Assembly: GCA_036479435.1 (NCBI GenBank)
Contig: JAZGFI010000103.1
Coordinates: forward strand, 33,955 to 97,954
Length of the DNA: 64,000 bases
From: Planctomycetota bacterium
GTDB taxonomy: Bacteria > Planctomycetota > GCA-002687715 > DRQF01
Direction of reading: 5' to 3'
Made by a program: the position numbers and the translations under genes
In this document: in pieces, positions 13,425 through 63,913 of the stretch
Numbering within the stretch: the stretch's first letter is position 1
Layout: every line of letters begins with the position of its first letter
Notes under the pieces: model-generated
What the model was told of the DNA's origin: nothing
Seen by the model: only the letters and a program-made list of their open reading frames with translations
The model's database searches: none

Positions 13425-14582
13425 TTGTCAGATTCGCTTCGAATTCTTCGGGTCATCACGCGTCTTAATGTCGGCGGGCCTTCGCGTCATGTGGTGCAGC
13501 TCATGCAGGGGCTGGAGTCGAATCGTTTCGAGCAGACTCTGGTTGCGGGTGAACTCAGCGAAGGCGAGGCGGAACTGCCTGACGCTAGGGCTTTGAAGCC
13601 GAGGTATTGCCGGGAACTTGCGCGCCGCGTGAGCCCTCAAAAAGACCGCCGCGCCTACCTTGAACTGAGGGGCATCATTGCCGAGCTGAAGCCGCACATC
13701 GTGCACACCCATCAAGCCAAGGCCGGATTGTTGGCGCGTTTGGCGGCGAAGCACGAGGCGGGGCCTAAGCTGGTCCATACCTACCACGGTCATACTTTTC
13801 AGGGTTACTGGAATCCGATTTTCGGGCGCCTCGTGCGAGGCCTTGAACGGCGGCTCGGCATGATGTCAGATGCCCTGATCGCGCAGTCAGAGTCTCAACG
13901 CGAAGAGCTTCGTCAACACTTGGGGGCTCGAGTCGCGGATCGGATTCGGATCATCAAGCCCGGAGTGAACTTCGACTTGTTCGAGGGAACAAGAGTTGGA
14001 ACACGGTCCTCAGAGACGATCTCAATTGGATTCGTCGGACGGCTTGCCACCGTCAAGAATGTGCCGGACTTCTTGGCAACGCTAAAGCAGCTCCAAGACC
14101 ATCATTCACTTTCCTTCAAAGCGAAGATCATCGGCGACGGTGCGGCATCGCTTCGAGAGCGACTTGAAGAACAAGCGCGAGCGCTGGGGGTGGCGGAAAA
14201 GATCGAATGGAAGGGTAATTGCAAGGACATGGCAAAAACCTATCGGGAGCTCGACGTCGTGGTCATGACCAGCCGCAATGAGGGGACCCCATTGGCCGCG
14301 ATTGAGGCGCTTTATTGCGGTTGCCGTTTCCTGTCCTACGACGTTGGGGGGATTCGTGACACGGTGGGAGATTTAAGCGGCGTGACATTGGTGCCGCCGC
14401 GAGACTTCAAACAACTGGCGGAAGCTCTGGTCAAGGTCGTTGCAAAGGGAGGACCCTGCGTTGATCTCGAATTGGAAAATCTGCAGCGGGAACTGAGTCA
14501 GCGATTTGGAAGCGCACGCCTAACGGCCGAGATTGCCGAGCTCTACGAAGACATCACCCGCGCGTCGCCGACGCGCTCTTAG
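13425..14582 (+). CDS. glycosyltransferase family 1 (GT-B, GT4-like)
   Basis: Begins LRILRVITRLNVGGP, typical of GT4 enzymes. C-terminal EGTPLAAIEALYCG(C) E-x7-E region. Start chosen at in-frame TTG 13425, 5 nt after GGAGAGGGGAG. ATG 13392 is possible but lacks an RBS. Confidence 0.75.
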   Translation: MSDSLRILRVITRLNVGGPSRHVVQLMQGLESNRFEQTLVAGELSEGEAELPDARALKPRYCRELARRVSPQKDRRAYLELRGIIAELKPHIVHTHQAKAGLLARLAAKHEAGPKLVHTYHGHTFQGYWNPIFGRLVRGLERRLGMMSDALIAQSESQREELRQHLGARVADRIRIIKPGVNFDLFEGTRVGTRSSETISIGFVGRLATVKNVPDFLATLKQLQDHHSLSFKAKIIGDGAASLRERLEEQARALGVAEKIEWKGNCKDMAKTYRELDVVVMTSRNEGTPLAAIEALYCGCRFLSYDVGGIRDTVGDLSGVTLVPPRDFKQLAEALVKVVAKGGPCVDLELENLQRELSQRFGSARLTAEIAELYEDITRASPTRS

Positions 14583-14977
14583 TCGTCGCAGCGAAGGCGA
14601 TCCGCGATGAAATTGCGGATGCTGTTCTGAGCTTCTTCGTCTTTCCAGCCAATCCACCAAAACTCGACGCCTATCTCGTAGCCGCCTTTTTCTTGGGCGT
14701 CGCACCAGGAGACTTTGCCCATTGAAATGACCTCCATCGGGAAGCCCGGAAGCTGCAATTCCAATGCCAGCATTTGGCCTTCTGCGACGGCCGCTGGAGC
14801 TTCAAAACTGATACCACCGCCGGAGATGTTGTTGAGGGCCGCGGCATGCTTGGTCTTGAGATCGTCAAATCGCCCGTCGGCGTCCTCGACGGGCCGGAAG
14901 GTCATTTCACAGTTGGCGCTCACTCGCGGAAACCCGCGGTTTTCCATGAGGGCGGGTTTTTGCTTGTCGTTCTTCAT
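14579..14977 (-). CDS. PilZ-domain protein (putative c-di-GMP receptor)
   Basis: RGFPRV (RxxxR) plus NNISGGGISF (D/NxSxxG) PilZ signature motifs. 132 aa. End overlaps the GT1 stop by 4 nt. Confidence 0.7.
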   Translation of the reverse strand: MKNDKQKPALMENRGFPRVSANCEMTFRPVEDADGRFDDLKTKHAAALNNISGGGISFEAPAAVAEGQMLALELQLPGFPMEVISMGKVSWCDAQEKGGYEIGVEFWWIGWKDEEAQNSIRNFIADRLRCDD

Positions 14978-23693: not shown

Positions 23694-23794
23694 CCGAGGA
23701 CCGGTGCGGACTTTTGACCAAATCCACGGAGCGTGTTAACAGGCGGGTAGGATCATGGCCCCGCAAGGGCCACCGCCTCTTGAGAGCGCAGGGA

Positions 23795-24541
23795 ATGTCC
23801 GAGCACCAATCCAAAGAACGATTGCAACAACTTAGCGCACTTGTGGGCGGGCTCGCCCACGAGATCAAAAACCCCTTGTCGACGATTAACATCAACCTTG
23901 AGCTGTTGCGCGAGGACTGGCATCACGACGGCGGGCCGCTGGCTAGTCGTTCGATTCGTAAAATCGACGTCTTACTGCAAGAATCGAGGCGCTTGGAGGG
24001 GATGCTGACAGAATTCATCAGACTAACTTCGACCGCCGAGCTCGACCCGAGCATCGTGGATATCAATGTCCTCTTGGAGGACGTCCTCGATTTTACGGCG
24101 GCCGAATGTCGGAATCGCAATATCCAGATCACCAGCCAGCTGGACCGCTCGCTCCCGCGCGTTGAGTTGGACCCCAACTTGATCCGCCAGGTGGTCTTGA
24201 ATCTCCTCAAAAACTCCTTCGAGGCCATGGAAGAGCGTGGCGGCACGATCACCGTCAACACCAGGCGCAAGGCGGCGGGGAGTGACTCGGAACTTAGGGT
24301 TGTGATCGAGGTTATTGACAACGGCTCCGGCATCACCCCGGAATCCCAAAAGCGGGTCTTTCAGGCTTACTTTTCTACCAAAGCCGAGGGAACTGGATTG
24401 GGTCTTCCCTCGGTACAAAAGATCGTCGAACGGCACGGCGGTCGCATTAGCTGTGAGAGCGCTCCCGGTTTGGGAACTCGCTTCGTGGTCGAGCTCCCAG
24501 CCAGGCAACCGTCAGCACCAGCACCTGACGAGGGACCCTGA
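23795..24541 (+). CDS. soluble sensor histidine kinase (HisKA + HATPase_c)
   Basis: H-box LVGGLAHEIKNPLSTI. N, G1 (DNGSGI) and G2 (GTGLGL) boxes. No TM segment. Start at ATG 23795; the longer frame would run into the divergent gene. Confidence 0.8.
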   Translation: MSEHQSKERLQQLSALVGGLAHEIKNPLSTININLELLREDWHHDGGPLASRSIRKIDVLLQESRRLEGMLTEFIRLTSTAELDPSIVDINVLLEDVLDFTAAECRNRNIQITSQLDRSLPRVELDPNLIRQVVLNLLKNSFEAMEERGGTITVNTRRKAAGSDSELRVVIEVIDNGSGITPESQKRVFQAYFSTKAEGTGLGLPSVQKIVERHGGRISCESAPGLGTRFVVELPARQPSAPAPDEGP

Positions 24542-24546
24542 ACGTC

Positions 24547-28268: not shown

Positions 28269-28284
28269 TTGGCTCGACGCTTGC
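28269..28284 (+). promoter_or_regulatory. candidate sigma-54 (-24/-12) promoter upstream of the Gld-like ABC operon
   Basis: TGGCTC-gacgc-TTGCT matches TGGCAC-N5-TTGCW, with GG (28270-28271) and GC (28282-28283) at the canonical spacing. Lies ~175 nt upstream of the ATPase start. Two sigma-54 activators are encoded in the window. Confidence 0.3.
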
Positions 28285-28459
28285 TTGTCTTCCTTGCCTT
28301 CACTGGTCTGGCGCGGCAATCGTGTCAAAGCGCTCACTGTGTCGACTCGGCTCGGGGACCTTGTTATGTCTGGTCTGCTGGGGCAGAACTGAGGGGCGCC
28401 GACGCCACCACTATCGCCTTTGACAATTACGGAGATGGCAGTTTGGATTCTCTTCTTCG

Positions 28460-29404
28460 ATGATCGAAGTTCACAACTTATTCAAACGTTTCGGGGCCTT
28501 TGAGGCTTTGAATTTCGTCAGCTTTGAAGTGGAAAAAGGAGAGTCGGTCGGTCTTTTGGGCGTCAACGGCGCGGGCAAGACCACGACGATGCGGATCTTG
28601 TCCTGTTTTTTGCCGCCAAGCTCTGGCACCGTAAAGGTGGGCGGGCATGACGTCGTTTTTGGCTCCGGCTCCGTCCGCAAGATCATCGGTTACCTCCCCG
28701 AAAACGTCCCACTTTACGGTGCGATGCGAGTCGATGAGTTTTTGCGTTATCGCGCAAAACTCAAGGGAATACGCGGACGCGAGGTCAAAGAGAGCGTCGA
28801 TCGAGTTCTCGGCATGGTTCACCTTGATGGCCGCCGGCGCAGCCTGATTCAGACCCTGTCGAAGGGTTTGCGCCAACGTGCTGGGCTCGCTGACGCCTTG
28901 GTGCACAATCCGGATCTGCTCATCCTCGATGAGCCGACTTCCGGTCTCGATCCCACCCAAAGGATTGAGGTGAGAGAAATGGTGAAGTCTTTGAAAGAGG
29001 ACCACACGATTCTGATCTCGAGCCACATTCTTCCTGAAATCGAAGCTTCCTGTGATCGCGTCGTGGTCATTAACGACGGCACCGTGGTCGCCGAGAAAAA
29101 GATCGACGAGTTGCGACGCTTCGGCGATTCGGACCGTTTCCAAATATTGGTGCGCGGTGACAAAGAGACGATCTTGAAAGTGCTCGAGGAGCAAATTGAC
29201 CTCAGGGTTGAGGACAGCGAAGAGCGCGCCACATCGGAGTTCCTTTTCTCCCTTTCGACCCCTGATCGCGAAAATGGCCGGGCGGACGTGAACCGGCGGC
29301 TAGTACGGGCGGACTTTGCCGTGCTCGGACTCATGAGCCGTGACCTGAGCCTCGAAGAGGCCTTCGTTCGTCTGATCAAAGCGGGGGAGGGTGCTTCAAA
29401 GTGA
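28460..29404 (+). CDS. ABC transporter ATP-binding protein (GldA-like, ABC-2 subfamily)
   Basis: Walker A GVNGAGKTT, signature SKGLRQRAGLADAL, Walker B LLILDEPTSGLD, H-loop SSHIL. C-terminal extra domain. Confidence 0.8.
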   Translation: MIEVHNLFKRFGAFEALNFVSFEVEKGESVGLLGVNGAGKTTTMRILSCFLPPSSGTVKVGGHDVVFGSGSVRKIIGYLPENVPLYGAMRVDEFLRYRAKLKGIRGREVKESVDRVLGMVHLDGRRRSLIQTLSKGLRQRAGLADALVHNPDLLILDEPTSGLDPTQRIEVREMVKSLKEDHTILISSHILPEIEASCDRVVVINDGTVVAEKKIDELRRFGDSDRFQILVRGDKETILKVLEEQIDLRVEDSEERATSEFLFSLSTPDRENGRADVNRRLVRADFAVLGLMSRDLSLEEAFVRLIKAGEGASK

Positions 29405-50317: not shown

Positions 50318-50692
50318 CCGCCCCTAAGGACCGAATAATTATTTCCCAGCTCAAGAACTAGACTAGGGGGCCGATCATCAAGGATCGGCCTCCAGTTCAT
50401 GCGCGAGCGTGGCTTGGCGAACGATGAGAAACCGGTCTCTTGTTCGGAGTTTTGAGCCTTGCCTATTTCCGGCGTCAACGCGGCTGAAAATCCTCTCAGC
50501 AATTTTCGAATTCGATCGAATACGATTTCATTACGCCGGCCCCCCGTTCCCAACCCGCGACGTGAGGCTTCACTTGAAAATGCCGCCTTGCGTTCGTTCT
50601 TGCGCCGGATCGACCGTCTTCGGGGTAACGTGGACGAGCTCGGAGATTCCGTAAAGCGACCCCGCCCTACTGACACGGGGGAAGGAGCTTCT

Positions 50693-52165
50693 GTGACCAG
50701 CGGAAGTAACGTCAACCTCGTATCTTTGACGACCCATGCCACGCTGACCTCAGATCGAGAGATCAACGATGTGCCGACTTCGTTCACCCCTTTCACCCCG
50801 GAGTTTTCCGCCCCTTTGAGCACGGCGACGGTCACGGTTGGCGGCGAGTACGGCGGACAGCAAGGCGATGACGTCCTGACGGTCGTCGCGACAGTTGCGG
50901 GTGATGTTGGCGTGGGGACCGGGCCCAAGTTCGGTGTTCTTGACGGGCTCGGCAATCAGGTCGACGTCTTCTCCTTGGGATCGAGCTATGTCCCGGGTGA
51001 GGCGATCACCCTTTCGAATGGATTGGAACTGAGTTTTGAAGCTGGCTTCGTCCAACAAGACGACAGTTTTGACATCGAGGTGTCCACCGCTGTACCCTCG
51101 GCGGTCGATTCGTCTGCAGCATTCAATGGTACCGGCGCCAACAACCCTAACTTTGAACCCGGGGTGACAGTGACGGCCGGGTCGATCGAGATCAACGGCA
51201 CCACGATCAACGTCGCGGCCAACGACTCAATCGACACCCTGCTGCAAAAGATCTCGACTTCAAACGCGAAGGTCAATGCCAGCTACAACGCGCAAACTGA
51301 ACGCATCGAGTTGATCAGCCAAATCGCTGGGTCGGCGGGCGATATCGTTCTGGGCACCGACACGACCGGGTTTTTTGCCGCAACAAAACTCGACACGGGG
51401 ATCTCCACCGCCGGGAACGACGGGTTTCAAGGCGACGTCGACAGTAGGATTGCAGACATCTCTAGCCTTAACGGTATTTCGAGCGGCACCTTTGAGGTCA
51501 ATGGCGTTACGCTCAACGTGGATGTCGACAACGACAGCCTGCAGGATGTCATCGATACCATTAATGCGAGCGGCGCTGGAGTGACGGCGAGTTACGACGC
51601 TGAGAATGCGGACATCTCCATCGTTTCGAACTCCGGCGGCAGTATCGTTCTCGGCGACGGCACCAGTGATCTTTTTAGCGTCTTGGATGTCTCTACTGGA
51701 GTCAGCATCTCGCCTCGAAGAAATGGCGGCAACGCTGGCAACCCTCAGGTGATCTCCGACGCTTTCGAGAATATTACCCGGGAGTTCAACCGATTGTTTT
51801 CTGACCTCGGCGGCGTCTCTCCCCTTCAGCGCAATCTCGCGAATATCGACTTCAAGGGGGCTATTCGCGGTGCCTTTCAGCAGGCTTTCGGCGAGTTTTT
51901 AGGCGGCGACGAACTCGACACCGGGATTGGCATCGTCTTTGACTTCAGCGATGACGCAGATGAGTTGCTGCGTTTTGACGAGAGTGAGTTTCGCTCCTCG
52001 TTGCGTTCGAAGTCCGTTCGTGCCTCGCAGTTTTTAGGCGATGAGAAAGTTACCGGTGGCCGCGGTGGGCTTGCCACGCGGTTTGCCGACGCCATCAAGA
52101 GAATCGAGGATCGGGTTCAAGATCGGCTTGGAATTCTGGGCGGCGTGCTCGACATCTTGGCCTAA
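50693..52165 (+). CDS. protein with two flagellin/hook-associated 'IN'-motif repeats (FliD-like middle region), orphan
   Basis: Two ~60-aa repeats, GSIEINGTTINVAANDSIDTLLQKISTSNAKVNASYNAQTERIELIS and GTFEVNGVTLNVDVDNDSLQDVIDTINASGAGVTASYDAENADISIVS, match the flagellin_IN pattern (F.INGxxIxV...Lxd.IN...AGV.ASyd). GTG 50693 lies 5 nt after AAGGAG. The upstream in-frame TTG at 50459 is an alternative start. Confidence 0.45.
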   Translation: MTSGSNVNLVSLTTHATLTSDREINDVPTSFTPFTPEFSAPLSTATVTVGGEYGGQQGDDVLTVVATVAGDVGVGTGPKFGVLDGLGNQVDVFSLGSSYVPGEAITLSNGLELSFEAGFVQQDDSFDIEVSTAVPSAVDSSAAFNGTGANNPNFEPGVTVTAGSIEINGTTINVAANDSIDTLLQKISTSNAKVNASYNAQTERIELISQIAGSAGDIVLGTDTTGFFAATKLDTGISTAGNDGFQGDVDSRIADISSLNGISSGTFEVNGVTLNVDVDNDSLQDVIDTINASGAGVTASYDAENADISIVSNSGGSIVLGDGTSDLFSVLDVSTGVSISPRRNGGNAGNPQVISDAFENITREFNRLFSDLGGVSPLQRNLANIDFKGAIRGAFQQAFGEFLGGDELDTGIGIVFDFSDDADELLRFDESEFRSSLRSKSVRASQFLGDEKVTGGRGGLATRFADAIKRIEDRVQDRLGILGGVLDILA

Positions 52166-55255: not shown

Positions 55256-55658
55256 CGGGGTTGGAGCCACGAAGAAGCCCCCTGTTGTACGGCCTGGCTC
55301 GGCCGCGATAAAGGCCCTGAGCTTTCGGGGTTCGGGCCCGTGCGGGGATTTCCGGCCCACTCGCTTGCCCCCCTGTCGTTACCTGGAGGGAACGTGTTTC
55401 GGTTTCGTAACAGGTTTGAATCCATGATTGGGGCCTATCATCGAGTCCTCGGCCTTGGCATTAAAGGTTGATGTGCCTTAACCAACGCCATTTCAACAGG
55501 TTAGGATGATGTAATTCGAATTCAGTCATTTGGCCCTATCCATCATTCTGGCATCTCCTTTGCTTTAGTTAACCGGAAAGACGCTCGATCCCCGGCTGGT
55601 TTGCCATGCCGATCGCGACGTTTTGCCAAGCAGTCCATAGAGACACAGGAGACAGGCA

Positions 55659-57608
55659 ATGAAGAAACTAGTATACCTTTCCTCCTTCATGGGGACTTTT
55701 CTGCTAGTGGCGAGCCTCGCGTTCGCTCACGGCGGTAATTACACCGGACCTGGCGGTACGGGATCCGGCGGCGGATTCTCACCTTCAGGTGGTGGTACTC
55801 CCGGCCCGGGTCCTGGACCCGGCGGTGGTGGTACGACCGGTGGCGGTTCTAACGGCGGCGGCGCGACCGGCCCTGGCGGCGGTCTTCCCGGTGGTCCGAC
55901 CGGACCTGGCGGCGGTGGCGGCGGCGGAAATGCTGGCGGACCTGGCGGCGGACTCGGTGGTGGCGGCGGTTCGACGCCCGGCGCTCGCAAGGCCGCCAGT
56001 GACGCGAACGTCACTTGGGCCGCTTGGTGGTTCTTCAACGATGATCGCTTCTTGAACCTCAAGGCGAAAGTTCGCGCCGACGAAGCGCAAACCGAAAACG
56101 CCGACTTGTTCCTGGGTGAAGACACCTCCGATGCCGGTAGCAACCGAATGCCCGCGAAGAAAATTCGCGAAGGTGTGTTGCCGGTTCTGCGCCTCGCGTT
56201 GAAGGACTCCTTCTACGACACGCGCGCTGCGGCCGTGATTGCCCTCGGCAAATGTGGCATGGGCGATGACCTCGCTGAAATCAAGTCTGTCCTCAACGAC
56301 CGTGACAAACGTGTCCGCGAATCGGCAGCGTTGGCGATGGGGATCCTTGGCGACAAGGAAGCCATCCCGACCCTCATCGAGATCATGAACAACACCAAGT
56401 CTGCGCGGAAATTGCTTCGCAAGGGCGGTGAAATTCTTCCCCGTACTCGTTCGTTCGCGGCTATCGCCATTGGTTTGATCGGTCGTCGTACCGACATCTC
56501 CGATACCGAAGGAACGCGCGCCCTCATCAAGCTCATGAACGACAAGAGAGCCACCAAGGCGCAAGTCGACCTCGCGGTCGGACCGATCGCCGCTCTCGGA
56601 ATCATGAAGTCGAAGGAAGCCATTCCCGAGCTCGTCAAGTACTTGAAGAACTCCAACAACCGCACCGTGGCCCGCTCGTTTGCAGCGACCTCGCTCGGCA
56701 AGATTGGTGATCGTTCGGCTCTTGAGCCGCTGTTGAAGTGCTTGAAGGACAAGCAGAACGCGATCGTTCAGTCCTCGACCATGGCTTTGGGTCAAATCCT
56801 TGAGCCCTCTGACACCAAAGAAGTGAAGCGCGTGAAGAAGCTCGTCTCGACGAGTGCTGACCTTTCGGTCAAGAACTTCGCGATCATGTCACTCGCTCAA
56901 ATCGGTGGCGACGAAAACCGTCAGTTCATCACGAGACTCGTGACCAAGGGTAAGGCTTTGCAAAAGCCCTTCGCTTCGCTCGCGGTCGGCGTGTTCTACT
57001 ACAACAACCCCGATTTCCTTCACCGGGAATCTGCGGCCAAGATCATCCACAAGGAGTTCAAGAGCACCAAGAACCCCTCGGATCTCGGCGCGCATGCGAT
57101 CGCTTTGGGTCTCATGAAGTACGACGCCGCTGGCGCCGACATTCTGAAGATCCTCAACAAGGGTGGCCAGGCTTCGCTTCGTCAGCACCTTGCGATCTCA
57201 CTCGGCCTCATGGACTACCGCGATTCCATCAAGGACATCCGGGAGATCGTGAAGGAAAAGGGTGATGTTGACTTGCGACGGAACTCCGCCATTGCTCTCG
57301 GTCTCCTCGGCGACCGTGGTGCCATGAAGTTCCTCAGCGAAGAAATCGCGAAGTCCTCGAACACGCAGCCGGTTCTCGGCGCCGTGACTCGTGGCCTCGG
57401 ATTCATCGGTGATGCGAGTGCGGTTCCGTTGTTGACGAAGATGGTCAAGGATTCGAAGAAGTTCAAGGACAACACGCGCGCCTTCTCGGCCGTGGCCTTG
57501 GGCTTGCTGGGCGACAAAGATCCCCTGCCCTTCACCGCCTCCATCTCTGAGAACAACAACTACATCCAGCGGACCGATGCGATCCGCGAAGTCCTGACGA
57601 TTCTCTAA
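55659..57608 (+). CDS. secreted HEAT-repeat (PBS-lyase-type) protein with Gly/Pro-rich N-terminal region, paralogue 1
   Basis: Signal peptide MKKLVYLSSFMGTFLLVASLAFA with the predicted cleavage site directly before HGGNY. An ~85-aa Gly/Pro tract, a conserved WAAWWFFNDDRFLNLKAK block, then >12 repeats of DxxVRxxAAxALGxxGD. Confidence 0.7.
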   Translation: MKKLVYLSSFMGTFLLVASLAFAHGGNYTGPGGTGSGGGFSPSGGGTPGPGPGPGGGGTTGGGSNGGGATGPGGGLPGGPTGPGGGGGGGNAGGPGGGLGGGGGSTPGARKAASDANVTWAAWWFFNDDRFLNLKAKVRADEAQTENADLFLGEDTSDAGSNRMPAKKIREGVLPVLRLALKDSFYDTRAAAVIALGKCGMGDDLAEIKSVLNDRDKRVRESAALAMGILGDKEAIPTLIEIMNNTKSARKLLRKGGEILPRTRSFAAIAIGLIGRRTDISDTEGTRALIKLMNDKRATKAQVDLAVGPIAALGIMKSKEAIPELVKYLKNSNNRTVARSFAATSLGKIGDRSALEPLLKCLKDKQNAIVQSSTMALGQILEPSDTKEVKRVKKLVSTSADLSVKNFAIMSLAQIGGDENRQFITRLVTKGKALQKPFASLAVGVFYYNNPDFLHRESAAKIIHKEFKSTKNPSDLGAHAIALGLMKYDAAGADILKILNKGGQASLRQHLAISLGLMDYRDSIKDIREIVKEKGDVDLRRNSAIALGLLGDRGAMKFLSEEIAKSSNTQPVLGAVTRGLGFIGDASAVPLLTKMVKDSKKFKDNTRAFSAVALGLLGDKDPLPFTASISENNNYIQRTDAIREVLTIL

Positions 57609-57627
57609 GGACTGGATGCTCACTTTG

Positions 57628-57668
57628 ACCGGGCGAAGTCTGAATGGACTTCGCCCGGTTTTTTTGTG
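57628..57668 (+). terminator. intrinsic terminator
   Basis: accgggcgaagtc-tgaatg-gacttcgcccggt is a perfect 13-bp stem, followed by ttttttt, 20 nt after the stop codon. Confidence 0.75.
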
Positions 57669-58148
57669 CTCGCCCCAAGCCGCGGAGACGCTCAGCCTCG
57701 CGCCAATTGTGAACGCTGCGCTCGCCGTTGGCGTATCTTACGACACCGTTCCCGATTTCGATCTTGGTAAGCAAACCGCCGAGCGTCGCCTCAACGTGTT
57801 CAAAGAAACCTGTGATCCCTCAAGACGCGATGCGATCGGCGAACTCCTGAAGATTCTCTGATTCGCATCCTATCGGCGAGGGCTCTTCGCGCTGGCCTTA
57901 GTGCTAAGGGAAGGAAGCGTTACGGCGGAGTCACGCCGTTACCAACAAATCCCATTGCCGATGAACGGGGCTTTGCGCAGCTGGACGTTCAACGGCCTCC
58001 AAAGGCCTCTGCTTGCCGATAGGGCGCTCCGTGCGCCTTCTGGCACCCTCTTTGCATTTGCTTGGTAGACACGCTCGATCCCCCAGCCGGATTGCTCCGC
58101 CGATCGTGACCTTCTGCCATGTGGTCCCAGTGACCCCGGAGAAACGCC

Positions 58149-60083
58149 ATGAAACATCTCATCTATCTAACTTCGTTCTTGGGAGCCTTGCTCCTAGCCA
58201 CCAGCCTGGTCTTTGCGCACGGCGGGAATTACACCGGTCCCGGCGGCACCGGCAGCAGCGGTGGCTTTTCACCATCGGGCGGCGGTACGCCCGGACCTGG
58301 GCCGGCTCCGGGAGGAGGCTCCACTCCTGGCGGCGGAGGAAACGGTGGTGGAGCCACTCCCCGCGGCAGCGGGTTGCCTGGAGGCCCCCCGGGTCCTGGA
58401 GGCGGCCTACCCGGTGGCGGGGGCTTTGGCGGTGGCCCTGGAAACGCCACGGGCGGCGGCAAGAAAAAGCCCTCTGACTCCAACACCACCTGGGCCGCTT
58501 GGTGGTTCTTCAACGACGATCGTTTCTTGAACCTCAAGGCCAAGATCCGGGCCGAGCGCGCCACGACCGATATCGACGATGCCTTCATGGGATCGGACAC
58601 GTCTGATTTGGGTCACAACAAACTCTCCGCTCGCAAGATTCGCGACGGTGTTCTTCCCGTGCTGCGCTTAGCGCTCAAAGACGGCCACTACGATACTCGT
58701 GCAGCCGCCGTCATCGCCTTAGGTAAGGCCGGAATGCCCGACGATCTGGCGGAGATTAAGACGCTCCTCGGCGACCGCGACAAGCGCGTGCGCGAGTCAT
58801 CGGCCTTGGCACTCGGCATCTTGGGCAACAAAAAAGCCCTACCCGAACTCATCGCCATCATGAACAACACAGCGTGGGCCCGAAAAGAACTGCGTCAAGG
58901 AGGCGAAGTTCTGCCGCGCACGCGCGCCTTCGCCGCCATGGCCTTGGGACTGATCGGTGGTCGTACGGACATTTCTGACACCGCCGCTTTCACCGCCCTC
59001 GTTCAACTCATGAACGACAAGCACACCACAAAGGCCCAGATCGATCTCACTGTGGGGCCCATCGTTGCGCTCGGGATCATGAACGACAAAGCCGCCGTAC
59101 CTGAGCTCGTACGCTACCTTGAAAATCGTGAAAACCGCACCACCGCCCGCGCCTACGCTGCCATTTCGCTCGGGAAACTCGGCGACCGTTCCGCGACGGC
59201 TTCCTTGCTCCGCGCTCTCAAGGCCAAGCACGGCGCCATCGTCGAATCCGCCGCGATCGCTTTGGGACAGATCCTTGAACCTAGCGACAAAAAGGCGGTC
59301 AAGCGCCTGCGTCGACTGGTTGCAAGCTCTCCCATTCAGTCGGTGCGCAACTTCGCCATCATGTCCTTGGGTCAAATCGGCGGTGAAGAGAACCGTCAAT
59401 TCCTCACCACTACCGTCACTCGCGGCAAAGCCCTCCAACGTCCTTTCGCCTCGATGGCACTCGGCGTCTTTTACTACAACCACCCGCACTACGATCATCG
59501 CAAGGCAACCGGCATTCTGCTTCATGGCGAATTCAAAGCCACCAAGAACCCCTCTGAACTCGGCGCACATGCGATTGCCCTGGGGCTGATGCAGTTTGAC
59601 ACCGCTGGTGCCGACATTCTGAAGACCCTAAACAAGGGCGGCCAGGCCTCGATGCGCCAACACCTAGCGATCTCTTTGGGGCTCATGAGCTACCAAGACG
59701 CCATCCCGGACATCCGTACCCTCGTGGAGGAAAAGGGCGATGTTGACTTGCGACGCAATGCTGCGATCGCCCTCGGTCTGCTCGGCGACCGCGGTGCGAT
59801 GAGTTTCCTAAGTGAGCAAATCGCCGACTCTGCGAATTCGCAGGCGGTCCTCGGGGCCGTGACGCGAGGCCTCGGCTTCATCGGCGATGCCAGTGCTGTC
59901 CCGCTTCTGACTGAAATGGTTCGCGACGCCAAAAAGTACAAGGACAACACACGCGCCTTTTCGGCCGTTGCCTTGGGGCTCTTGGGCGACAAAGACCCGC
60001 TGCCTTTCACGACAGCCATCGCCGAGAACAACAACTACATCCAGCGCACGGACGCCATCCGCGAGCTCCTCACTATCCTTTAA
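58149..60083 (+). CDS. secreted HEAT-repeat (PBS-lyase-type) protein with Gly/Pro-rich N-terminal region, paralogue 2
   Basis: Collinear with paralogue 1 over the whole length (same signal peptide, HGGNYTGPGGTG start, WAAWWFFNDDRFLNLKAK block, identical C-terminal IQRTDAIRExLTIL). ~85 bp of upstream DNA is also conserved. Confidence 0.7.
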   Translation: MKHLIYLTSFLGALLLATSLVFAHGGNYTGPGGTGSSGGFSPSGGGTPGPGPAPGGGSTPGGGGNGGGATPRGSGLPGGPPGPGGGLPGGGGFGGGPGNATGGGKKKPSDSNTTWAAWWFFNDDRFLNLKAKIRAERATTDIDDAFMGSDTSDLGHNKLSARKIRDGVLPVLRLALKDGHYDTRAAAVIALGKAGMPDDLAEIKTLLGDRDKRVRESSALALGILGNKKALPELIAIMNNTAWARKELRQGGEVLPRTRAFAAMALGLIGGRTDISDTAAFTALVQLMNDKHTTKAQIDLTVGPIVALGIMNDKAAVPELVRYLENRENRTTARAYAAISLGKLGDRSATASLLRALKAKHGAIVESAAIALGQILEPSDKKAVKRLRRLVASSPIQSVRNFAIMSLGQIGGEENRQFLTTTVTRGKALQRPFASMALGVFYYNHPHYDHRKATGILLHGEFKATKNPSELGAHAIALGLMQFDTAGADILKTLNKGGQASMRQHLAISLGLMSYQDAIPDIRTLVEEKGDVDLRRNAAIALGLLGDRGAMSFLSEQIADSANSQAVLGAVTRGLGFIGDASAVPLLTEMVRDAKKYKDNTRAFSAVALGLLGDKDPLPFTTAIAENNNYIQRTDAIRELLTIL

Positions 60084-60163
60084 ACCCAAGCGGTGCCTAG
60101 CACCGCGACCTCATCAATCGGTGTTTAGCACCGCGCGTCACTTGCCTGTACCTGGCACTCAAT

Positions 60164-60187
60164 AGTGACGGCGTGGTGCCTGGCACC
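60164..60187. repeat. 24-nt element AGTGACGGCGTGGTGCCTGGCACC, identical (inverted) to 13260-13283; part of a cluster of GGTGCCTGGCACC-like palindromes at 60098-60187
   Basis: The reverse complement of 13260-13283 (ggtgccaggcaccacgccgtcact) equals 60164-60187 exactly. Degenerate copies: cggtgcctagcaccgcg (60098-60114), cggtgtttagcaccgcg (60119-60135), cctggcact (60150-60158). Confidence 0.8.
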
Positions 60188-60193
60188 CAATAA

Positions 60194-60697
60194 TCAGATT
60201 CGTCTTAGCCAAAAGGCCAAGGAGATGGCGATGAGGAGACCGGCGGTGAGGGCGATCCAGGAACGCTTTTGAAGACCGGCTGCAGAGTCGAGGTATTGCT
60301 CGGCATTTTTCGTTTGGGTGCGGTAGTGCTGGATAACGTCTTCGCGATCATCGAGAGAGGCGGCGCGCCGAAAGGCGTCGACGGCCGCGCGGTGATGGTT
60401 TTGCGAACCGAGAATGGCACCCTTCAATCCCCAGTTAAGGGATTGTTTGGCGTCGAGTTCAATGGCGCGTTCAGCACTTTTGAGAGCGGAATCGAGGTCG
60501 CCGAGATCGCGAAAAGCGGACGACAAAAAATGGTGACCCCAGGGATCGCGCGGAAATGTTTGCGTGTGAGTTCTGAGATTTTCGATGGGCCGAGAAGAAT
60601 TGGCGAAAATTTCCTGGGCGCGTAGGTAGTCCGAAGGCGAGGCGTCGTTTTGTACGCCAGCACTGAACAGAGCACAGACTAGGGCAAGGGAAAACAT
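60194..60697 (-). CDS. small secreted TPR-like repeat protein
   Basis: Signal peptide MFSLALVCALFSAGVQ. Helical-repeat composition with an ALKSAERAIELDAKQSLNWGLKGAIL TPR-like motif. Confidence 0.45.
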   Translation of the reverse strand: MFSLALVCALFSAGVQNDASPSDYLRAQEIFANSSRPIENLRTHTQTFPRDPWGHHFLSSAFRDLGDLDSALKSAERAIELDAKQSLNWGLKGAILGSQNHHRAAVDAFRRAASLDDREDVIQHYRTQTKNAEQYLDSAAGLQKRSWIALTAGLLIAISLAFWLRRI

Positions 60698-60702
60698 GCC
60701 AG

Positions 60703-62352
60703 CTAGTCTCCTTTGAGCCAGCGGTCGGTGAGGGACTCGACGGGCGCGTGGTGGTCGCGAAGGATCGGAGCTTCGGAAGATGGGCTAAAGTCGCTGCTAA
60801 AACGCGCGGCGTAGCGACCCGTGCTTTGGAGGTTTTTTGGAAACACCTTGGCGGAAGGCCAGGCGACCGGGCCATGGGGTCGCGCCCACATCATCGTGTT
60901 GCCCCACCATTGCACCGGCGTCACGCGCAAATGCTCGTAGCCGCCGTCCTGCAGGCTGCGTCCGATGCTCTGAATCAGGCCTTGGCCGAGATCCGTACCA
61001 CTGACGTTGAGGGCGAGAATGCCACCGGGAGCCAGACGCTTTTTTGTCAGCTTAAAGAACTCGGTCGTGACGAGGTGGAAAGGGATGTCGATCTGGCGGG
61101 CGTAGGCGTCGACGATGATCAAGTCGTAGAGTTGAGTGCTCGCCGCCAAAAAAGCCCGGCCATCCAAGGCTAGGCTGCGGTCGTGGGGCCCCTTTTCGTA
61201 GCCGAAACGCTCCTCAAGTCCGATGACAGCGGGATCAATCTCAACGTTGATGATGGAGGCGACGTGCTCGTCCCAAAGGGTACGAAAAAGGCGGGCCATG
61301 GTTCCGGCTCCGCTTCCCAAGACCGCGATGCGGATCGCCTTGTCGGCGGCAAAAAGTCCGGGCAAGAGCGCGAAGGTGTCGTAGTACTTGCCGCCGGTGG
61401 TGTCGGCGTCTTTGAGTAGGAGCGAGTGAAACTCGTTAACGCCTTCATCAATACGAAGCAGCAATTCCGTCTCGCCAGCGAGAGCTGGTTCAACCGGTTC
61501 GGCCTCGACGAGACGTAGATACTGATAGGCCGTTTCGTACTCGATGAGTTTCGACTCGCCACCTAGGGCCGGTCGCAGCGGCCGCCCATTCAAGCCCAAG
61601 CCAGATAACAACAGCAAGATGCCCAAAGCTGCGGCGGTCTTTCCTTGGGTCTTGCCTCGAAGCAACAAGAACGCGGCCGGCAGGCCTAAGAACGCACCAG
61701 CGATCAACAGTGAGGCTCGGGAGCCGACCGTCGGAATAAGGAAATAGGTCGGCAGAAAGGTCCCCAGAAGGCTGCCGAAAGTGCCAACGCCGAAGACCAA
61801 GCCAGAGGCGCGTCCGGCATCGATATTCGGCATCGCGGCGAGCCGGGCCACGATCTGCGGCGTAACCGAGGCTAAAAGGAATGCCGGTGGTGCGAAAAGA
61901 AAAAGTGAGACAACCAAAGAGCCCATTTGAAGGCCGCGGCGAAGCGCGGTCGCGTCGACCGATGCCTCGGGTGCCGGCAATAGCCAGGTACTAAGCAAGG
62001 GGACGAGCCAGGGGATGAGGGCGGCGCAGCCCGCCGCCCCGATGAGGTGAAAGGCAACCCGGCGCGGAGCCCGCGGGCGATGGGCGAGCTTGCCGCCAAA
62101 CTGATAACCGAGAGCTAAGGCGAACAGAATAACGCCGATGACGTTCGTCCAGACAAAGCTGGAGCTGCCGAAATAGGGCTGCATGATGCGAGGTGCGGTG
62201 AGCTCAAAGAGCATGGTTCCCGCGCCCGCCGCGAAGGCAACAAACAGCCAGCTCGTCAGCGACGGGCTGGCTTGAGAATCGCTTGACGTTGGTTCGCTCA
62301 CGACGGCTGAGGATCGCAAGAGCCTAGCTCTTTTCCTCTTCCTTTTTCTCAT
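60703..62352 (-). CDS. fused polytopic membrane domain + spermidine-synthase-like (class I SAM MTase fold) protein
   Basis: N-terminal ~220 aa with ~7 TM helices. C-terminal region with IAVLGSGAGTMARLF (GxGxG), YDLIIVDAY and GGILALNV typical of spermine/spermidine synthase family proteins. Confidence 0.6.
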   Translation of the reverse strand: MRKRKRKRARLLRSSAVVSEPTSSDSQASPSLTSWLFVAFAAGAGTMLFELTAPRIMQPYFGSSSFVWTNVIGVILFALALGYQFGGKLAHRPRAPRRVAFHLIGAAGCAALIPWLVPLLSTWLLPAPEASVDATALRRGLQMGSLVVSLFLFAPPAFLLASVTPQIVARLAAMPNIDAGRASGLVFGVGTFGSLLGTFLPTYFLIPTVGSRASLLIAGAFLGLPAAFLLLRGKTQGKTAAALGILLLLSGLGLNGRPLRPALGGESKLIEYETAYQYLRLVEAEPVEPALAGETELLLRIDEGVNEFHSLLLKDADTTGGKYYDTFALLPGLFAADKAIRIAVLGSGAGTMARLFRTLWDEHVASIINVEIDPAVIGLEERFGYEKGPHDRSLALDGRAFLAASTQLYDLIIVDAYARQIDIPFHLVTTEFFKLTKKRLAPGGILALNVSGTDLGQGLIQSIGRSLQDGGYEHLRVTPVQWWGNTMMWARPHGPVAWPSAKVFPKNLQSTGRYAARFSSDFSPSSEAPILRDHHAPVESLTDRWLKGD

Positions 62353-63913
62353 CGCCCTCTTCGGTTTTGGCGTTCTGCTCTGCAGGTGACAGCTCGGTCA
62401 CGACGATTGTCGTCGTCTTAAAACGCACCGTATCGTAGGGGCGGCCGCGCATCGACCTGATCATTTCCGACACTGATCGCGCCGGGATTTTGGCGATTAC
62501 AGGGATTCCGTTGGCAAAGATCCGCACGGGGCGATCTAAGTCCAATATCTCATCGTTCAAGAAGAAGGAGAGGCTGTGCACGCCGTCACCGGTCACGCGA
62601 ATGGTATTCGCTTCCTTGTCGATCTCGAACAAGATGTCGATCGCACCTTCGTTTTTCTCGCGGCCAATGTCGTGCCCGTTGATGCGGACGTAAGAAGCAG
62701 ATCTGAAGATCGGGTTGTCGGTCACAATCCGCATTTTGGGCGGATAGGCTTCGAGTTTTTTGCCTTCAATGAAGGCGGCAATTTTGTCAGCCGCGTCCCA
62801 CACGGGGTCAATGATCTGCCCCCCTAAGACCTTGGTGTTGAGCTTTTCAGGCGCGTCGAGCTCGAGAATTTCGGCATTCCACTTTTGCTCCACAACGATC
62901 TTTTTGAAGGCGGCCCATTCTTCGGCGCGGGTCTTACCGTCGCGCTCCTTTTTGTGCGGCTTGCGGTGGATCAGCAGCGTGGGCAGCTGGGCTAAACCGG
63001 GAAACAACGCCTTTTTTTGCAAGACGCCCTGTCGCGCAATCACTCCAGCGAAACTGTCGATGCCAAAAAGAGCGGCCAACTCTAATGCCATCGTCGCGCC
63101 TCGGCCGCTGCCTTCGACGAAAACCCGCTCAATATCGATGTTGAAGGACTGTTGCACCGTCCGTAACGGCCTGACCATCGCTTGGGCGTGCAGCGCATCG
63201 AACCACTTAAAATCGCGTTCCGCGGCGTTCTTGCTCTTTCTACTTTTGTCGGAAATAGTCGGCGCGATGATGATGAACTTGTCAGCAACGGCCCGAGTAG
63301 CTTTGTTCGCGAGCCAGACTTTGTTGATGTAGTCTTTGCCCGTGCCGTAGACGCGTGCAGATTTTCGGTCGTGGAAGCAGAGGATGACCGGCCAGGAGAC
63401 CTTAGGGTCGTATTTTTTGGGAACCGAGACCGCATATTCAAACTCGACGGCTTCGCCCTGGACTTTGAAGCTGACGCGGCTGACCGAAACGCCCTTTTTC
63501 ATTTTCTTGGCTTTCATGCGCGCCGTGTGATGCTCGGCGTGCAGGGTATTCCAGGCTTCCGTGTCGGCGAGCGCGTCGCCTACCCCCTTTTTCTCGGACC
63601 ATTTCTCCAAGGCCTCGCGGAGTTTTCGTACGCCGCTATTGTTCCCCTTTTCCATCGCCTTTAGGTAGAGCGGACGGATCATCTTCAGGTCGCCTTTGGA
63701 GAGTTTGGCTTTCGGTTTCGATTCCGATTTTTCTTGGTCCTGAGCCCTTAGGGTCGTGGCTGCCAACATGAGACCAGCCAGCGCTAGCCCTAGTGAAAAC
63801 AAGCTGAACCATCTCGGCTGGCAAGGCGATGAGTCTGGGGTTGAGTTTGAGTCTGAGTCTGAATTCATTGGGAACGATTCGCCCTGGCGGTGTGCGGTGA
63901 AGGCGCTGGTCAT
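62324..63913 (-). CDS. secreted alpha/beta-hydrolase-like protein (esterase/PHB-depolymerase-like)
   Basis: Signal peptide. WPVILCFHD segment. GSGRGATMA is a possible nucleophile elbow. Confidence 0.4.
   Translation of the reverse strand: MTSAFTAHRQGESFPMNSDSDSNSTPDSSPCQPRWFSLFSLGLALAGLMLAATTLRAQDQEKSESKPKAKLSKGDLKMIRPLYLKAMEKGNNSGVRKLREALEKWSEKKGVGDALADTEAWNTLHAEHHTARMKAKKMKKGVSVSRVSFKVQGEAVEFEYAVSVPKKYDPKVSWPVILCFHDRKSARVYGTGKDYINKVWLANKATRAVADKFIIIAPTISDKSRKSKNAAERDFKWFDALHAQAMVRPLRTVQQSFNIDIERVFVEGSGRGATMALELAALFGIDSFAGVIARQGVLQKKALFPGLAQLPTLLIHRKPHKKERDGKTRAEEWAAFKKIVVEQKWNAEILELDAPEKLNTKVLGGQIIDPVWDAADKIAAFIEGKKLEAYPPKMRIVTDNPIFRSASYVRINGHDIGREKNEGAIDILFEIDKEANTIRVTGDGVHSLSFFLNDEILDLDRPVRIFANGIPVIAKIPARSVSEMIRSMRGRPYDTVRFKTTTIVVTELSPAEQNAKTEEGDEKKEEEKS

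What the first reader, a model, noticed from the sequence alone, without database searches (positions are those of the whole stretch)
55562..60083. Tandem duplicated secreted HEAT-repeat proteins with N-terminal His after signal cleavage and an ~85-residue Gly/Pro tract; the duplication includes the 5' region
The two ~645-aa paralogues are collinear. Each has a signal peptide ending AFA with predicted cleavage directly before HGGNYTGPGGTGS, which would leave His as the mature N-terminus. Next comes a Gly/Pro-rich linker with only very low-complexity similarity between the copies. Then the invariant WAAWWFFNDDRFLNLKAK block and a long PBS-lyase-type HEAT solenoid. The final 14 residues are identical. 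About 85 bp upstream of each ATG are also conserved (acgctcgatcccc...gccgatcg.gac...ATGAA), so promoter and 5' UTR were duplicated with the genes. Secreted HEAT solenoids with a free N-terminal His and a flexible Gly/Pro stalk are not a described functional class. A role in envelope scaffolding or metal binding is inference only.
Basis: partly seen in the sequence, partly recalled or inferred. Interest (0 to 1): 0.6.

Follow-up and report, generated by a model that had tools for sequence, protein, structure and literature searches.

The report
Sigma-54-driven exported HEAT-repeat gene pair
Two neighbouring genes encode exported alpha-helical repeat proteins of a large, uncharacterised family found almost only in uncultured Planctomycetota; each gene has its own sigma-54 promoter and upstream activator site, and each mature protein probably starts with an invariant His-Gly-Gly-x-Tyr peptide on a long floppy Gly/Pro tether, whose function is still unknown.

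Summary
Genes A (55659-57608, 649 aa) and B (58149-60083, 644 aa) are collinear paralogues. Each has a Sec-type signal peptide, a predicted mature N-terminus HGGNYTGPGG, a Gly/Pro tract of about 85 residues, a Trp-rich cap helix and a HEAT solenoid of about 15 repeats.

What the tools added:
- The duplication is old. Synonymous sites are saturated and dN/dS is 0.125.
- The "conserved 85 bp" is a 5'UTR downstream of a consensus sigma-54 promoter (TGGCAY-N5-TTGCW at 55549 and 58041). Selection, not recency, keeps it similar.
- Sigma-54-type promoters precede 43 of 64 family genes in related loci. A conserved upstream element, CGTTACC-N5-GGRAAC(...GGTAAC), lies about 100-170 bp upstream of the -24 element.
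- The family has at least 264 clusters at 50% identity. It nearly always has this one architecture and occurs as 1-6 tandem copies in a conserved chromosomal position.
- The invariant residues are H-G-G-x-Y-x-G-P, directly after an A-x-A/G cleavage site, and W-x-x-W-W-x-x-N.

No curated family, solved structure or paper describes it.

Best reading: an inducible, exported envelope binding or scaffold protein. Its tethered N-terminal peptide is a docking or metal-binding site, but that function is inferred, not shown.

The parts
55370..55414 (+). Upstream activator-type element of gene A. It reads TGTCGTTACC-TGGAG-GGAACG...TCGTAACAGG, with GTTACC at 55378-55383 and GTAAC at 55407-55411. It lies about 135-180 bp upstream of the -24 element, in the divergent intergenic region next to the NAD synthase gene.
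   Evidence: CGTTAC occurs in 22 of 41 promoter-upstream regions (1.3 expected, P 7e-23). GGTAAC occurs in 21 of 41 (1.2 expected). The block aligns across 16 first-copy genes.
55549..55564 (+). Sigma-54 (-24/-12) promoter of gene A: TGGCATCTCCTTTGCT.
   Evidence: It is one of only 3 exact matches to TGGCAY-N5-TTGCW in 64 kb on both strands, against 0.18 expected. The same motif type precedes 43 of 64 family genes.
55575..55658 (+). Predicted 5'UTR of gene A, about 85 nt. The start is inferred from the -12 element and has not been mapped. Blocks shared with B are ACGCTCGATCCCC, GCCGATCG.GAC and the Shine-Dalgarno GGAGA.
   Evidence: Alignments of A, B and their orthologues in L043. There is no Rfam match. 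Predicted folds are no more stable than shuffles.
55659..57608 (+). Gene A, 649 aa (NCBI MEE9392208.1). Signal peptide: residues 1-23 (55659-55727). N-terminal motif HGGNYTGP: residues 24-31 (55728-55751). Disordered Gly/Pro tether: residues 32-112 (55752-55994). Trp-rich cap helix: residues 116-149 (56004-56105). HEAT solenoid: residues 166-649 (56154-57605).
57627..57668 (+). Intrinsic terminator after gene A: a 15-bp stem (9 G-C pairs), a 4-nt loop, then a T-run.
   Evidence: sequence.
57715..57858 (+). Relic of a further family copy. It encodes AALAVGVSYDTVPDFDLGKQTAERRLNVFKETCDPS (matching A residues 439-474) joined directly to RRDAIGELLKIL* (matching the last 12 residues). It lies inside the mechanical ORF 57616..57861, which also spans the terminator hairpin.
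   Evidence: DNA repeats D5 and D6. tblastn gives E 1e-4 in the spacer. A decayed middle copy is also seen in L007.
57917..57943 (+). Upstream activator-type element of gene B: GCGTTACGGCGGAGTCACGCCGTTACC, with GTTAC at 57919-57923 and GTTACC at 57938-57943.
58041..58056 (+). Sigma-54 (-24/-12) promoter of gene B: TGGCACCCTCTTTGCA, a perfect consensus.
58067..58148 (+). Predicted 5'UTR of gene B, about 82 nt.
58149..60083 (+). Gene B, 644 aa (NCBI MEE9392210.1). Signal peptide: residues 1-23 (58149-58217). HGGNYTGP: residues 24-31 (58218-58241). Gly/Pro tether: residues 32-107 (58242-58469). Trp-rich helix: about residues 111-144 (58479-58580). HEAT solenoid: about residues 161-644 (58629-60080).
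   Evidence: The domain limits are transferred from the model of A through the ungapped alignment.
60090..60106 (.). G+C-rich hairpin GCGGTGCCTAGCACCGC between the convergent genes B and the TPR gene (60194-60697, minus strand). It is a possible terminator. There is no T-run on the plus strand.

Best explanation
The locus holds two old paralogues of a lineage-specific family of Sec-exported HEAT-repeat proteins. Each paralogue is an independent sigma-54-dependent transcription unit.

Proposed sequence of events:
1. An unidentified NtrC-type enhancer-binding protein binds the CGTTACC/GGRAAC sites upstream (inferred).
2. It activates sigma-54 RNA polymerase at TGGCAY-N5-TTGCW. The motif match is shown; sigma-54 dependence is inferred.
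3. Gene A's transcript ends at its own terminator, and gene B is read from its own promoter.
4. The pre-proteins are exported, and signal peptidase I cuts after A-x-A, exposing His1 (predicted).
5. The mature protein is a solenoid of about 15 HEAT repeats, capped by a Trp-rich helix. It carries a disordered Gly/Pro tether of about 90 residues that ends in the invariant peptide H-G-G-x-Y-x-G-P.

Most likely function (inference): an inducible periplasmic or envelope binding or scaffold protein. The solenoid would hold a partner. The tethered N-terminal peptide would be either a docking peptide for a second partner or a small metal site (His imidazole, free amine and Gly amides).

Copy number changes by recurrent tandem duplication and decay.
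For: Architecture and paralogy.

Export signal:
- The n, h and c regions are present.
- In 104 homologues, -1 is A or G in 101 and -3 is small or aliphatic in 96. His is always at +1.

Motif conservation:
- The invariant columns of a 35-member alignment reaching down to 28% identity are H24, G25, G26, G30, P31, W120, W123, W124 and N127, plus repeat-consensus positions.
- The motifs occur only in family genes within 721 kb of related loci.

Sigma-54 control:
- Exact consensus sites lie 92-94 nt upstream of both ATGs. There are 3 such sites in 64 kb against 0.18 expected.
- The relaxed motif precedes 43 of 64 family genes, against 0.014 expected per 270 nt.
- A conserved upstream element has P about 1e-22.
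- Two NtrC-type activators are encoded in the window.
- A terminator follows gene A.

Age and constraint:
- A versus B gives dS about 1.7 and dN/dS 0.125.
- The promoter and 5'UTR are 77/110 identical, against 59.8 +/- 3.5 for shuffles.

Family size and architecture: 737 clusters at E <= 1e-3 and 264 at E <= 1e-10. The N-module always sits at the N-terminus of proteins of about 610-730 aa.

Arrays and synteny.

General context: sigma-54 has been linked to the cell exterior across bacteria (PMC3162934).
Against: - No dedicated signal-peptide predictor was run, and no experiment is available. An uncleaved signal anchor is not excluded.
- The sigma-54 motif was not found upstream of 21 of 64 genes, notably in L001, L041 and L032.
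- No enhancer-binding protein lies within 10 kb of family genes in any other locus. rpoN itself is not in the window.
- The N-terminal peptide and tether are modelled with pLDDT of about 30, so no docking geometry is available.
- Fold matches are generic HEAT proteins.
- The conserved neighbours are convergently transcribed and of unknown role. They give no functional anchor.
- Some late-array paralogues lack the His.
Confidence: 0.6

Rival explanations
1. A recent tandem duplication of an ordinary HEAT-repeat gene. The similar upstream sequence would be neutral hitch-hiking with no regulatory meaning.
For: The two genes are adjacent and collinear, and about 110 nt upstream are similar.
Against: - Synonymous sites are saturated (pS 0.67 in the HEAT part, 0.81 in codons 1-57).
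- The sister genome L043 already has both copies.
- Neutral DNA of that age should be at chance identity, as the 200 nt further upstream are.
- The conserved part coincides with a sigma-54 consensus that recurs across the family.
Confidence: 0.05
2. They are cytoplasmic bilin-lyase-type proteins, relatives of CpcE/CpcF/NblB/CpeY (PBS lyase HEAT proteins), with a tetrapyrrole-handling role.
Against: - Scores of 50-73 bits are far below the curated cut-offs of 300-600 bits.
- A conserved cleavable export signal is present.
- The hosts are labelled Planctomycetota, not cyanobacteria.
- The similarity is to the repeat consensus only. Designed alphaRep proteins score best.
Confidence: 0.03
3. They are periplasmic metal-binding or metal-buffering proteins. 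The mature N-terminus H-G-G-x-Y would bind Cu(II), or Ni/Zn, through the free amine, the His imidazole and the deprotonated amides of the two glycines. This is the coordination seen in the HGGGW unit of the prion protein. The tether and solenoid would deliver or sense the metal, and sigma-54 induction would respond to metal or envelope stress.
For: - H1, G2 and G3 are invariant (104/104, 104/104 and 102/104). An aromatic residue occupies +5 in 101/104.
- These are the positions that ligate Cu2+ in HGGGW (PMC2663819).
- Variants replace His by Cys (P0093: PCGGNYRGP) or add Cys (DHCNSYRGP in P0069, P0072 and P0078).
- An N-terminal His after signal cleavage is the hallmark of histidine-brace copper proteins (from my own knowledge).
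Against: - There is only one site per protein and no second His.
- No metal-homeostasis genes are in the conserved neighbourhood.
- Some paralogues lack the His.
- The recalled parallel to the ZraP N-terminus was not confirmed in the solved Salmonella protein, which reads AFA-GHHWGNNDGMW.
- A five-residue pattern match is weak evidence.
Confidence: 0.2
4. They are self-assembling envelope structure subunits. The N-terminal peptide of one molecule would dock onto the solenoid or the conserved C-terminus (...E-[VL]-L-[TSD]-I-L) of the next. This would build an elastic network or fibre, analogous to sigma-54-controlled, multi-copy pilin and flagellin genes.
For: - The genes occur in multi-copy tandem arrays, each copy with its own sigma-54 promoter.
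- Both extreme termini are conserved.
- The Gly/Pro tether has an elastomer-like composition.
Against: There is no structural or co-evolution evidence for docking. The tether is poorly conserved in length and sequence. The C-terminal conservation may simply cap the solenoid.
Confidence: 0.1

Closest known systems
PBS-lyase-type HEAT repeat proteins (Pfam HEAT_2 PF13646 / HEAT_PBS PF03130: CpcE/CpcF, NblB, E. coli YibA, designed alphaRep)
   Different: Those proteins are cytoplasmic and lack a signal peptide, the N-terminal HGGxYxGP peptide, the Gly/Pro tether and the W-x-x-W-W-x-x-N cap. The equivalog thresholds are missed by a wide margin.
Classical sigma-54 / NtrC-type regulated envelope genes (for example zraP, pspA, pilin and flagellin genes)
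   Same: A -24/-12 promoter, an upstream activator-type site about 100-170 bp away, and an exported product. Multi-copy tandem genes, each with its own promoter, resemble flagellin and pilin loci.
   Different: The product is a HEAT solenoid, which I do not know as a sigma-54 target class. The activator is not adjacent and is unidentified.
Prion protein octarepeat Cu(II) unit HGGGW
   Same: His followed by two Gly, with an aromatic residue at +4, set in a flexible Gly-rich N-terminal region. In PrP the His side chain and the amides of the next two Gly bind Cu2+ (PMC2663819).
   Different: Here there is a single copy at the very N-terminus. The aromatic residue is Tyr, not Trp. There is no homology, and metal binding is untested.
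Histidine-brace and N-terminal-His periplasmic copper proteins (LPMO, CopC, PmoB; from my own knowledge)
   Same: His becomes residue 1 after signal-peptide cleavage.
   Different: Those sites sit on a folded beta-sandwich and use a second His. Here the His lies in a disordered peptide (pLDDT about 30).
TonB-like tethered envelope proteins (from my own knowledge)
   Same: A short functional N-terminal element, a long Pro-rich spacer and a folded C-terminal domain in the periplasm.
   Different: TonB is anchored by an uncleaved transmembrane helix. Here the hydrophobic segment has a conserved A-x-A cleavage site, and the folded domain is unrelated.

Membership tests
PBS-lyase HEAT repeat superfamily (Pfam PF13646 / PF03130) | Repeat models match above the Pfam gathering score | tested here: met
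   HEAT_2 scores 153 and 159 bits against a cut-off of 27.7. HEAT_PBS scores 82 and 76 bits against a cut-off of 20.9.
Phycobilin lyases / NblB (NCBIfam CpcE NF058502, NblB NF045915, CpeY NF058505) | Score above the curated equivalog cut-off | tested here: not met
   Scores of 73, 72 and 54 bits against cut-offs of 330, 300 and 600.
Phycobilin lyases / NblB | Cytoplasmic protein without an export signal, in a phycobilisome-bearing organism | tested here: not met
   A conserved N-terminal signal peptide is present. The source records are labelled Planctomycetota.
Sigma-54-dependent transcription units | -24 GG / -12 GC promoter (TGGCAC-N5-TTGCW) at a suitable distance upstream of the gene, on the sense strand | tested here: met
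   Sites at 55549-55564 and 58041-58056. There are 3 exact sites in 64 kb against 0.18 expected. The motif is present at 43 of 64 family genes.
Sigma-54-dependent transcription units | An upstream activator sequence for an enhancer-binding protein | tested here: met
   A conserved CGTTACC...GGRAAC...GGTAAC element is enriched with P about 1e-22. That it binds an activator is inferred.
Sigma-54-dependent transcription units | The genome encodes sigma-54 and AAA+ enhancer-binding proteins | tested here: inconclusive
   Two NtrC-type activators (Sigma54_activat at E 1e-70) lie at 24547-25932 and 39684-41033. rpoN is not in this window, and the rest of the genome is not available.
Sigma-54-dependent transcription units | Transcription abolished without RpoN or the activator | not testable with these tools
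   This needs experiments.
Sec / signal peptidase I substrates | A positively charged n-region, a hydrophobic h-region and small residues at -3 and -1 | tested here: met
   Net charge is +1 or +2 in 94 of 104. The median maximum hydrophobicity is 2.5. Position -1 is A or G in 101/104, and -3 is A/V/S/T/G in 96/104.
Sec / signal peptidase I substrates | Positive call by a dedicated predictor, or a determined mature N-terminus | not testable with these tools
   No SignalP-type tool or proteomic data were available.
Histidine-brace copper proteins | N-terminal His plus a second His on a folded immunoglobulin-like or beta-sandwich domain | tested here: not met
   His1 is predicted, but the region is disordered and there is no conserved second His.
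PrP-type HGGGW Cu(II) unit (a functional analogy, not homology) | The H-G-G-x-aromatic pattern | tested here: met
   H, G and G are invariant, and Y or F occupies +5 in 101/104. The precedent is PMC2663819.
PrP-type HGGGW Cu(II) unit (a functional analogy, not homology) | Measured Cu(II) binding | not testable with these tools
   This needs spectroscopy or ITC.

The most novel reading that the evidence does not exclude
The family is a new class of sigma-54-induced envelope proteins. A single prion-octarepeat-like or histidine-brace-like N-terminal metal site (NH2-His-Gly-Gly-x-Tyr) sits on an elastomeric Gly/Pro tether attached to a large HEAT solenoid. On this reading it is a tethered metal sensor, scavenger or delivery device, or a metal-dependent docking switch, specific to uncultured Planctomycetota.
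Probability: 0.2. Interest if true: 0.65.

Novelty: new variant of a known kind. Interest (0 to 1): 0.45.

Why it matters
- It defines a large and diverse family (at least 264 clusters at 50% identity) that public annotation labels only as "HEAT repeat domain-containing protein". The family now has a precise signature: A-x-A|HGGxYxGP, a Gly/Pro tether, WxxWWxxN and a HEAT solenoid.
- It gives the family a regulatory handle: a sigma-54 promoter plus a conserved upstream element. This makes it experimentally tractable through reporter fusions and identification of the activator.
- Exported HEAT solenoids are rare. Sigma-54 regulons in Planctomycetota are essentially unmapped.
- The conserved cis-element could be used to find the rest of the regulon, and hence the inducing signal.
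- If the N-terminal peptide proves to be a metal site or a docking peptide, it would be a new design for periplasmic proteins.

Tried and rejected
- Rfam scan of 55300-60300 at E <= 1: no RNA family.
- Folding of the three 5'UTRs: z-scores of -0.65, +0.84 and -1.68, so there is no support for a structured leader. A CGAUC/GAUCG pairing recurs.
- The sigma-70 scan found nothing upstream of either gene.
- A locus search with the 35-member alignment failed because no stretch was conserved enough. A 15-member alignment worked.
- An enhancer-binding protein was sought near family genes in 42 other loci. None lies within 10 kb.
- An unbiased 9-mer comparison of the four upstream regions found nothing shared. 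The 6-mer enrichment across 41 promoters did find the upstream element.
- The recalled ZraP parallel (sigma-54-dependent periplasmic protein with an HGG N-terminus): the solved Salmonella ZraP begins GHHWGNNDGMW, so the parallel is not confirmed.
- The CcmE HxxxY haem motif (HDENY) resembles HGGxY. This is only recalled from memory and was not tested.
- The idea that the N-module is a general sorting tag on other protein types is rejected. It occurs only in family genes within 721 kb. Among the best 150 of 737 hits it always sits at the N-terminus of proteins of about 610-730 aa. Shorter hits are fragments, and the 1135-aa hit is a frameshift chimera.
- The 81-aa ORF 57616..57861 is rejected as a real gene. 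It spans the terminator hairpin and consists of two fused fragments of a family gene.

Full report
OBSERVATION

- The window holds two same-strand ORFs: A at 55659..57608 (649 aa) and B at 58149..60083 (644 aa).
- They align without gaps over the last 540 residues at 74% identity.
- Both match Pfam HEAT_2 (E 2.6e-45 and 3.5e-47) and HEAT_PBS.
- Residues 1-57 are 46/57 identical. Both read M-K-x, a hydrophobic core, F-A, then HGGNYTGPGGTGS.
- The tract between His24 and the Trp block is 89 residues in A (50 Gly, 12 Pro) and 84 in B (42 Gly, 14 Pro).
- The block WAAWWFFNDDRFLNLKAK is identical in both copies.
- NCBI lists the proteins as MEE9392208.1 and MEE9392210.1, "HEAT repeat domain-containing protein", from a Planctomycetota MAG.

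STRUCTURE

- An AlphaFold2 model of A, built with a 35-sequence alignment, has mean pLDDT 80.5 and pTM 0.78.
- Residues 14-113 are disordered (pLDDT about 30).
- A helix at 116-149, which carries the Trp motif, is confident. A short disordered acidic loop follows.
- Residues 166-649 form about 30 helices, that is about 15 HEAT pairs, with pLDDT mostly above 90.
- NCBIfam gives only far-sub-threshold CpcE, NblB and CpeY hits: 54-73 bits against cut-offs of 300-600.
- These are therefore PBS-lyase-type HEAT solenoids by fold, but they are not bilin lyases.

THE FAMILY

- A search of 5.8 billion proteins found hundreds of relatives of about 625-700 aa. Nearly all come from MAGs labelled Planctomycetota, and none of the best 120 carries a specific name.
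- In a 35-member alignment reaching down to 28% identity, the invariant columns are H24, G25, G26, G30, P31, W120, W123, W124 and N127, plus a few repeat-consensus positions. The most conserved parts of the protein are thus the two N-terminal motifs, not the solenoid.
- Among the 120 best hits, 104 have a complete N-terminus carrying the motif. In these, His sits at median position 24.
  - Position -1 is A or G in 101/104.
  - Position -3 is A/V/S/T/G in 96/104.
  - The n-region is positively charged.
  - The motif reads H1 G2 G3 x Y5 x G7 P8 x [G/D] x [G/V] [P/T/S] P.
- This is the pattern of a signal peptidase I site immediately before the His. No dedicated predictor could be run.
- A profile of the N-terminal module alone was searched against 1.84 billion cluster representatives. 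It finds 737 clusters at E <= 1e-3 and 264 at E <= 1e-10.
  - In the best 150, the module is always at the N-terminus of proteins of about 610-730 aa.
  - Shorter hits are fragments, and the single 1135-aa hit is a frameshift chimera.
- Within 721 kb of related loci, the motifs occur only in family genes. The module is therefore not a general sorting tag.

ARRAYS AND EVOLUTION

- Across 43 related loci, family genes occur as 1 to 6 tandem copies. L027 has six in a row.
- L041 has three copies, while its sister strain L042 has the third copy broken.
- A neighbour-joining tree shows both old paralogues and many lineage-specific duplications.
- For the window pair, synonymous sites are saturated (pS 0.67, dS about 1.7) with dN/dS 0.125. 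A against its orthologue in L043 gives dS 0.68 and dN/dS 0.10.
- L043 already has both copies. The duplication is therefore old, and both copies are under purifying selection.
- The 540-bp spacer between A and B contains two things:
  - a strong intrinsic terminator just after A, at 57627-57660 followed by a T-run;
  - a 144-nt relic of another family copy, matching residues 439-474 fused to the last 12 residues (57715-57858).
- A decayed middle copy is also seen in L007. The family evolves by birth and death of tandem copies.

REGULATION (THE MAIN NEW RESULT)

The sites are TGGCATCTCCTTTGCT at 55549-55564 and TGGCACCCTCTTTGCA at 58041-58056, which lie 94 and 92 nt before the respective ATG.
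- The pattern TGGCAY-N5-TTGCW occurs only three times in the 64-kb window on both strands, against 0.18 expected by chance.
- A relaxed form of the motif is present within 260 nt upstream, on the sense strand, of 43 of 64 evaluable family genes. The background rate is 0.014 per 270 nt.
- From the promoter to the ATG, A and B are 77/110 identical against 59.8 +/- 3.5 for shuffles. The 200 nt further upstream are at chance overall. Because synonymous sites are saturated, this similarity reflects constraint, not recent duplication.
- An unbiased 6-mer enrichment in the 210 nt upstream of 41 such promoters singles out two words: CGTTAC (22/41 against 1.3 expected, P 7e-23) and GGTAAC (21/41 against 1.2 expected).
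- Aligned, these give TGTCGTTACC-N5-GGAAACG-N~11-CGGTAAC, at about -170 to -135 from the -24 element for first copies. Second copies carry CGTTACC-N5-GGRAAC or paired GTTAC sites.
- In the window the elements are at 55370-55414 (A) and 57917-57943 (B).
- This is the classical layout of an enhancer-dependent sigma-54 promoter.
- The window encodes two NtrC-type activators: 24547-25932, next to a histidine kinase, and 39684-41033. No activator lies within 10 kb of family genes in the other loci, so the cognate one is unknown.
- No Rfam family matches the leaders. Their predicted folds are not better than shuffles.

GENOMIC CONTEXT

- The array sits in a conserved backbone position.
- In the near clade, NAD synthase and myo-inositol-1-phosphate synthase lie upstream.
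- Across both near and far clades (21 of 40 loci, many of them truncated), two convergently transcribed genes lie downstream:
  - a fused MFS/spermidine synthase (NF037959, 184 bits; 60703-62352);
  - a protein of about 500 aa with weak similarity to PHB-depolymerase-type esterases (62324-63913).
- Because these genes are convergent, they do not form an operon with the family genes and give no clear functional clue.

WHAT IT MOST LIKELY IS

Shown by the sequence analysis:
- a conserved architecture;
- motifs conserved beyond the solenoid;
- a sigma-54-type promoter and an upstream element;
- independent transcription units;
- old paralogy under purifying selection.

Predicted:
- Sec export and cleavage before His.

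Inferred:
- an inducible periplasmic or envelope binding or scaffold protein, in which the solenoid holds a partner;
- a tethered N-terminal peptide that is a docking site or a small metal site.

The metal idea has a concrete chemical precedent. [quoted passage not shown] Here H-G-G are invariant, with Tyr or Phe at +5 in 101/104. A few variants substitute or add Cys. This is an analogy over five residues. No metal genes are nearby, and some paralogues lack the His. I therefore give it about 0.2.

The sigma-54 link to exported envelope components fits the general theme proposed by Francke et al. (PMC3162934).

NOVELTY

- The fold and the repeat type are known, and so is the promoter class.
- New here are the definition of this exported family with its N-terminal signature, its recurrent tandem arrays, and its conserved sigma-54 promoter with an upstream element.
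- None of this is captured by Pfam, NCBIfam or the PDB, nor by the papers found.
- I rate it a new variant of a known kind, of moderate interest.

Noticed in passing
window 57715-57858 (+), within the mechanical ORF 57616..57861: A relic of a further family gene. Residues matching 439-474 are fused to the last 12 residues and the stop codon. It sits between the terminator of A and the promoter of B. NCBI accession numbering (MEE9392208.1 and MEE9392210.1) suggests that something is annotated between the two genes.
   Followed up: partly
window 14754-14769 (-): The third exact sigma-54 consensus in the window (TGGCATTGGAATTGCA). It lies inside a 132-aa minus-strand ORF (14579..14977) with a PilZ-like GGGISF motif. 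It may be a chance match or an internal or antisense promoter.
   Followed up: partly
window 23678-25932 (+) and 39684-41033 (+): A histidine kinase followed by an NtrC-type sigma-54 activator (with the GAFTGA motif), and a second NtrC-type activator that has a Walker A match but no GAFTGA match in my regex scan. The organism clearly uses sigma-54. Whether either regulator controls the HEAT genes is unknown.
   Followed up: partly
window 28270-28285 (+): A one-mismatch sigma-54 motif (TGGCTCGACGCTTGCT) lies 175 nt upstream of an ABC-transporter ATPase gene (28460..29404; best NCBIfam hit GldA-like, below its cut-off). It is a possible further sigma-54 target.
   Followed up: no
window 57054-57353 versus 59529-59828 (codons about 470-560 of A): Synonymous divergence between A and B drops here to pS 0.49-0.54, against about 0.75 elsewhere, and nucleotide identity rises to 77-80%. 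This could be an old gene-conversion tract or stronger constraint.
   Followed up: partly
L027 9698-21782; L041 and L042 7588-14159: L027 has six consecutive family paralogues, with gaps of only 3-5 bp between some of them, and only the first copies keep the HGG motif. In L041 and L042, two near-identical genomes differ in whether the third copy is intact.
   Followed up: partly
L002 3970-5523 (-) and L011 about 1262 (-): A different protein with HEAT_2 and VWA domains, conserved near the array in several loci, carries a similar W-x-x-W-W-x-x-N motif near its C-terminus (LWADWWRKN). The Trp motif may therefore be a general solenoid cap in these bacteria.
   Followed up: no
window 60703-62352 (-) and 62324-63913 (-): A fused MFS/spermidine synthase (NF037959) and a membrane-anchored protein with weak similarity to PHB-depolymerase-type esterases (its GxSxG motif is not obvious). 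Both lie convergently downstream of the HEAT array in 21 of 40 loci, across deep divergence.
   Followed up: partly
window 50459-52165 (+): A 568-aa ORF with no Pfam hit. It has only weak NCBIfam similarity, far below threshold, to flagellar hook-associated proteins.
   Followed up: no
window 55575-55658 and 58067-58148; L043 2874-2958: The leaders share the blocks ACGCTCGATCC and GCCGATCG(C/T)GA, which could pair (CGAUC with GAUCG). Other family members also show a hairpin-like inverted repeat just after the predicted start. Stability is not above shuffled controls.
   Followed up: partly
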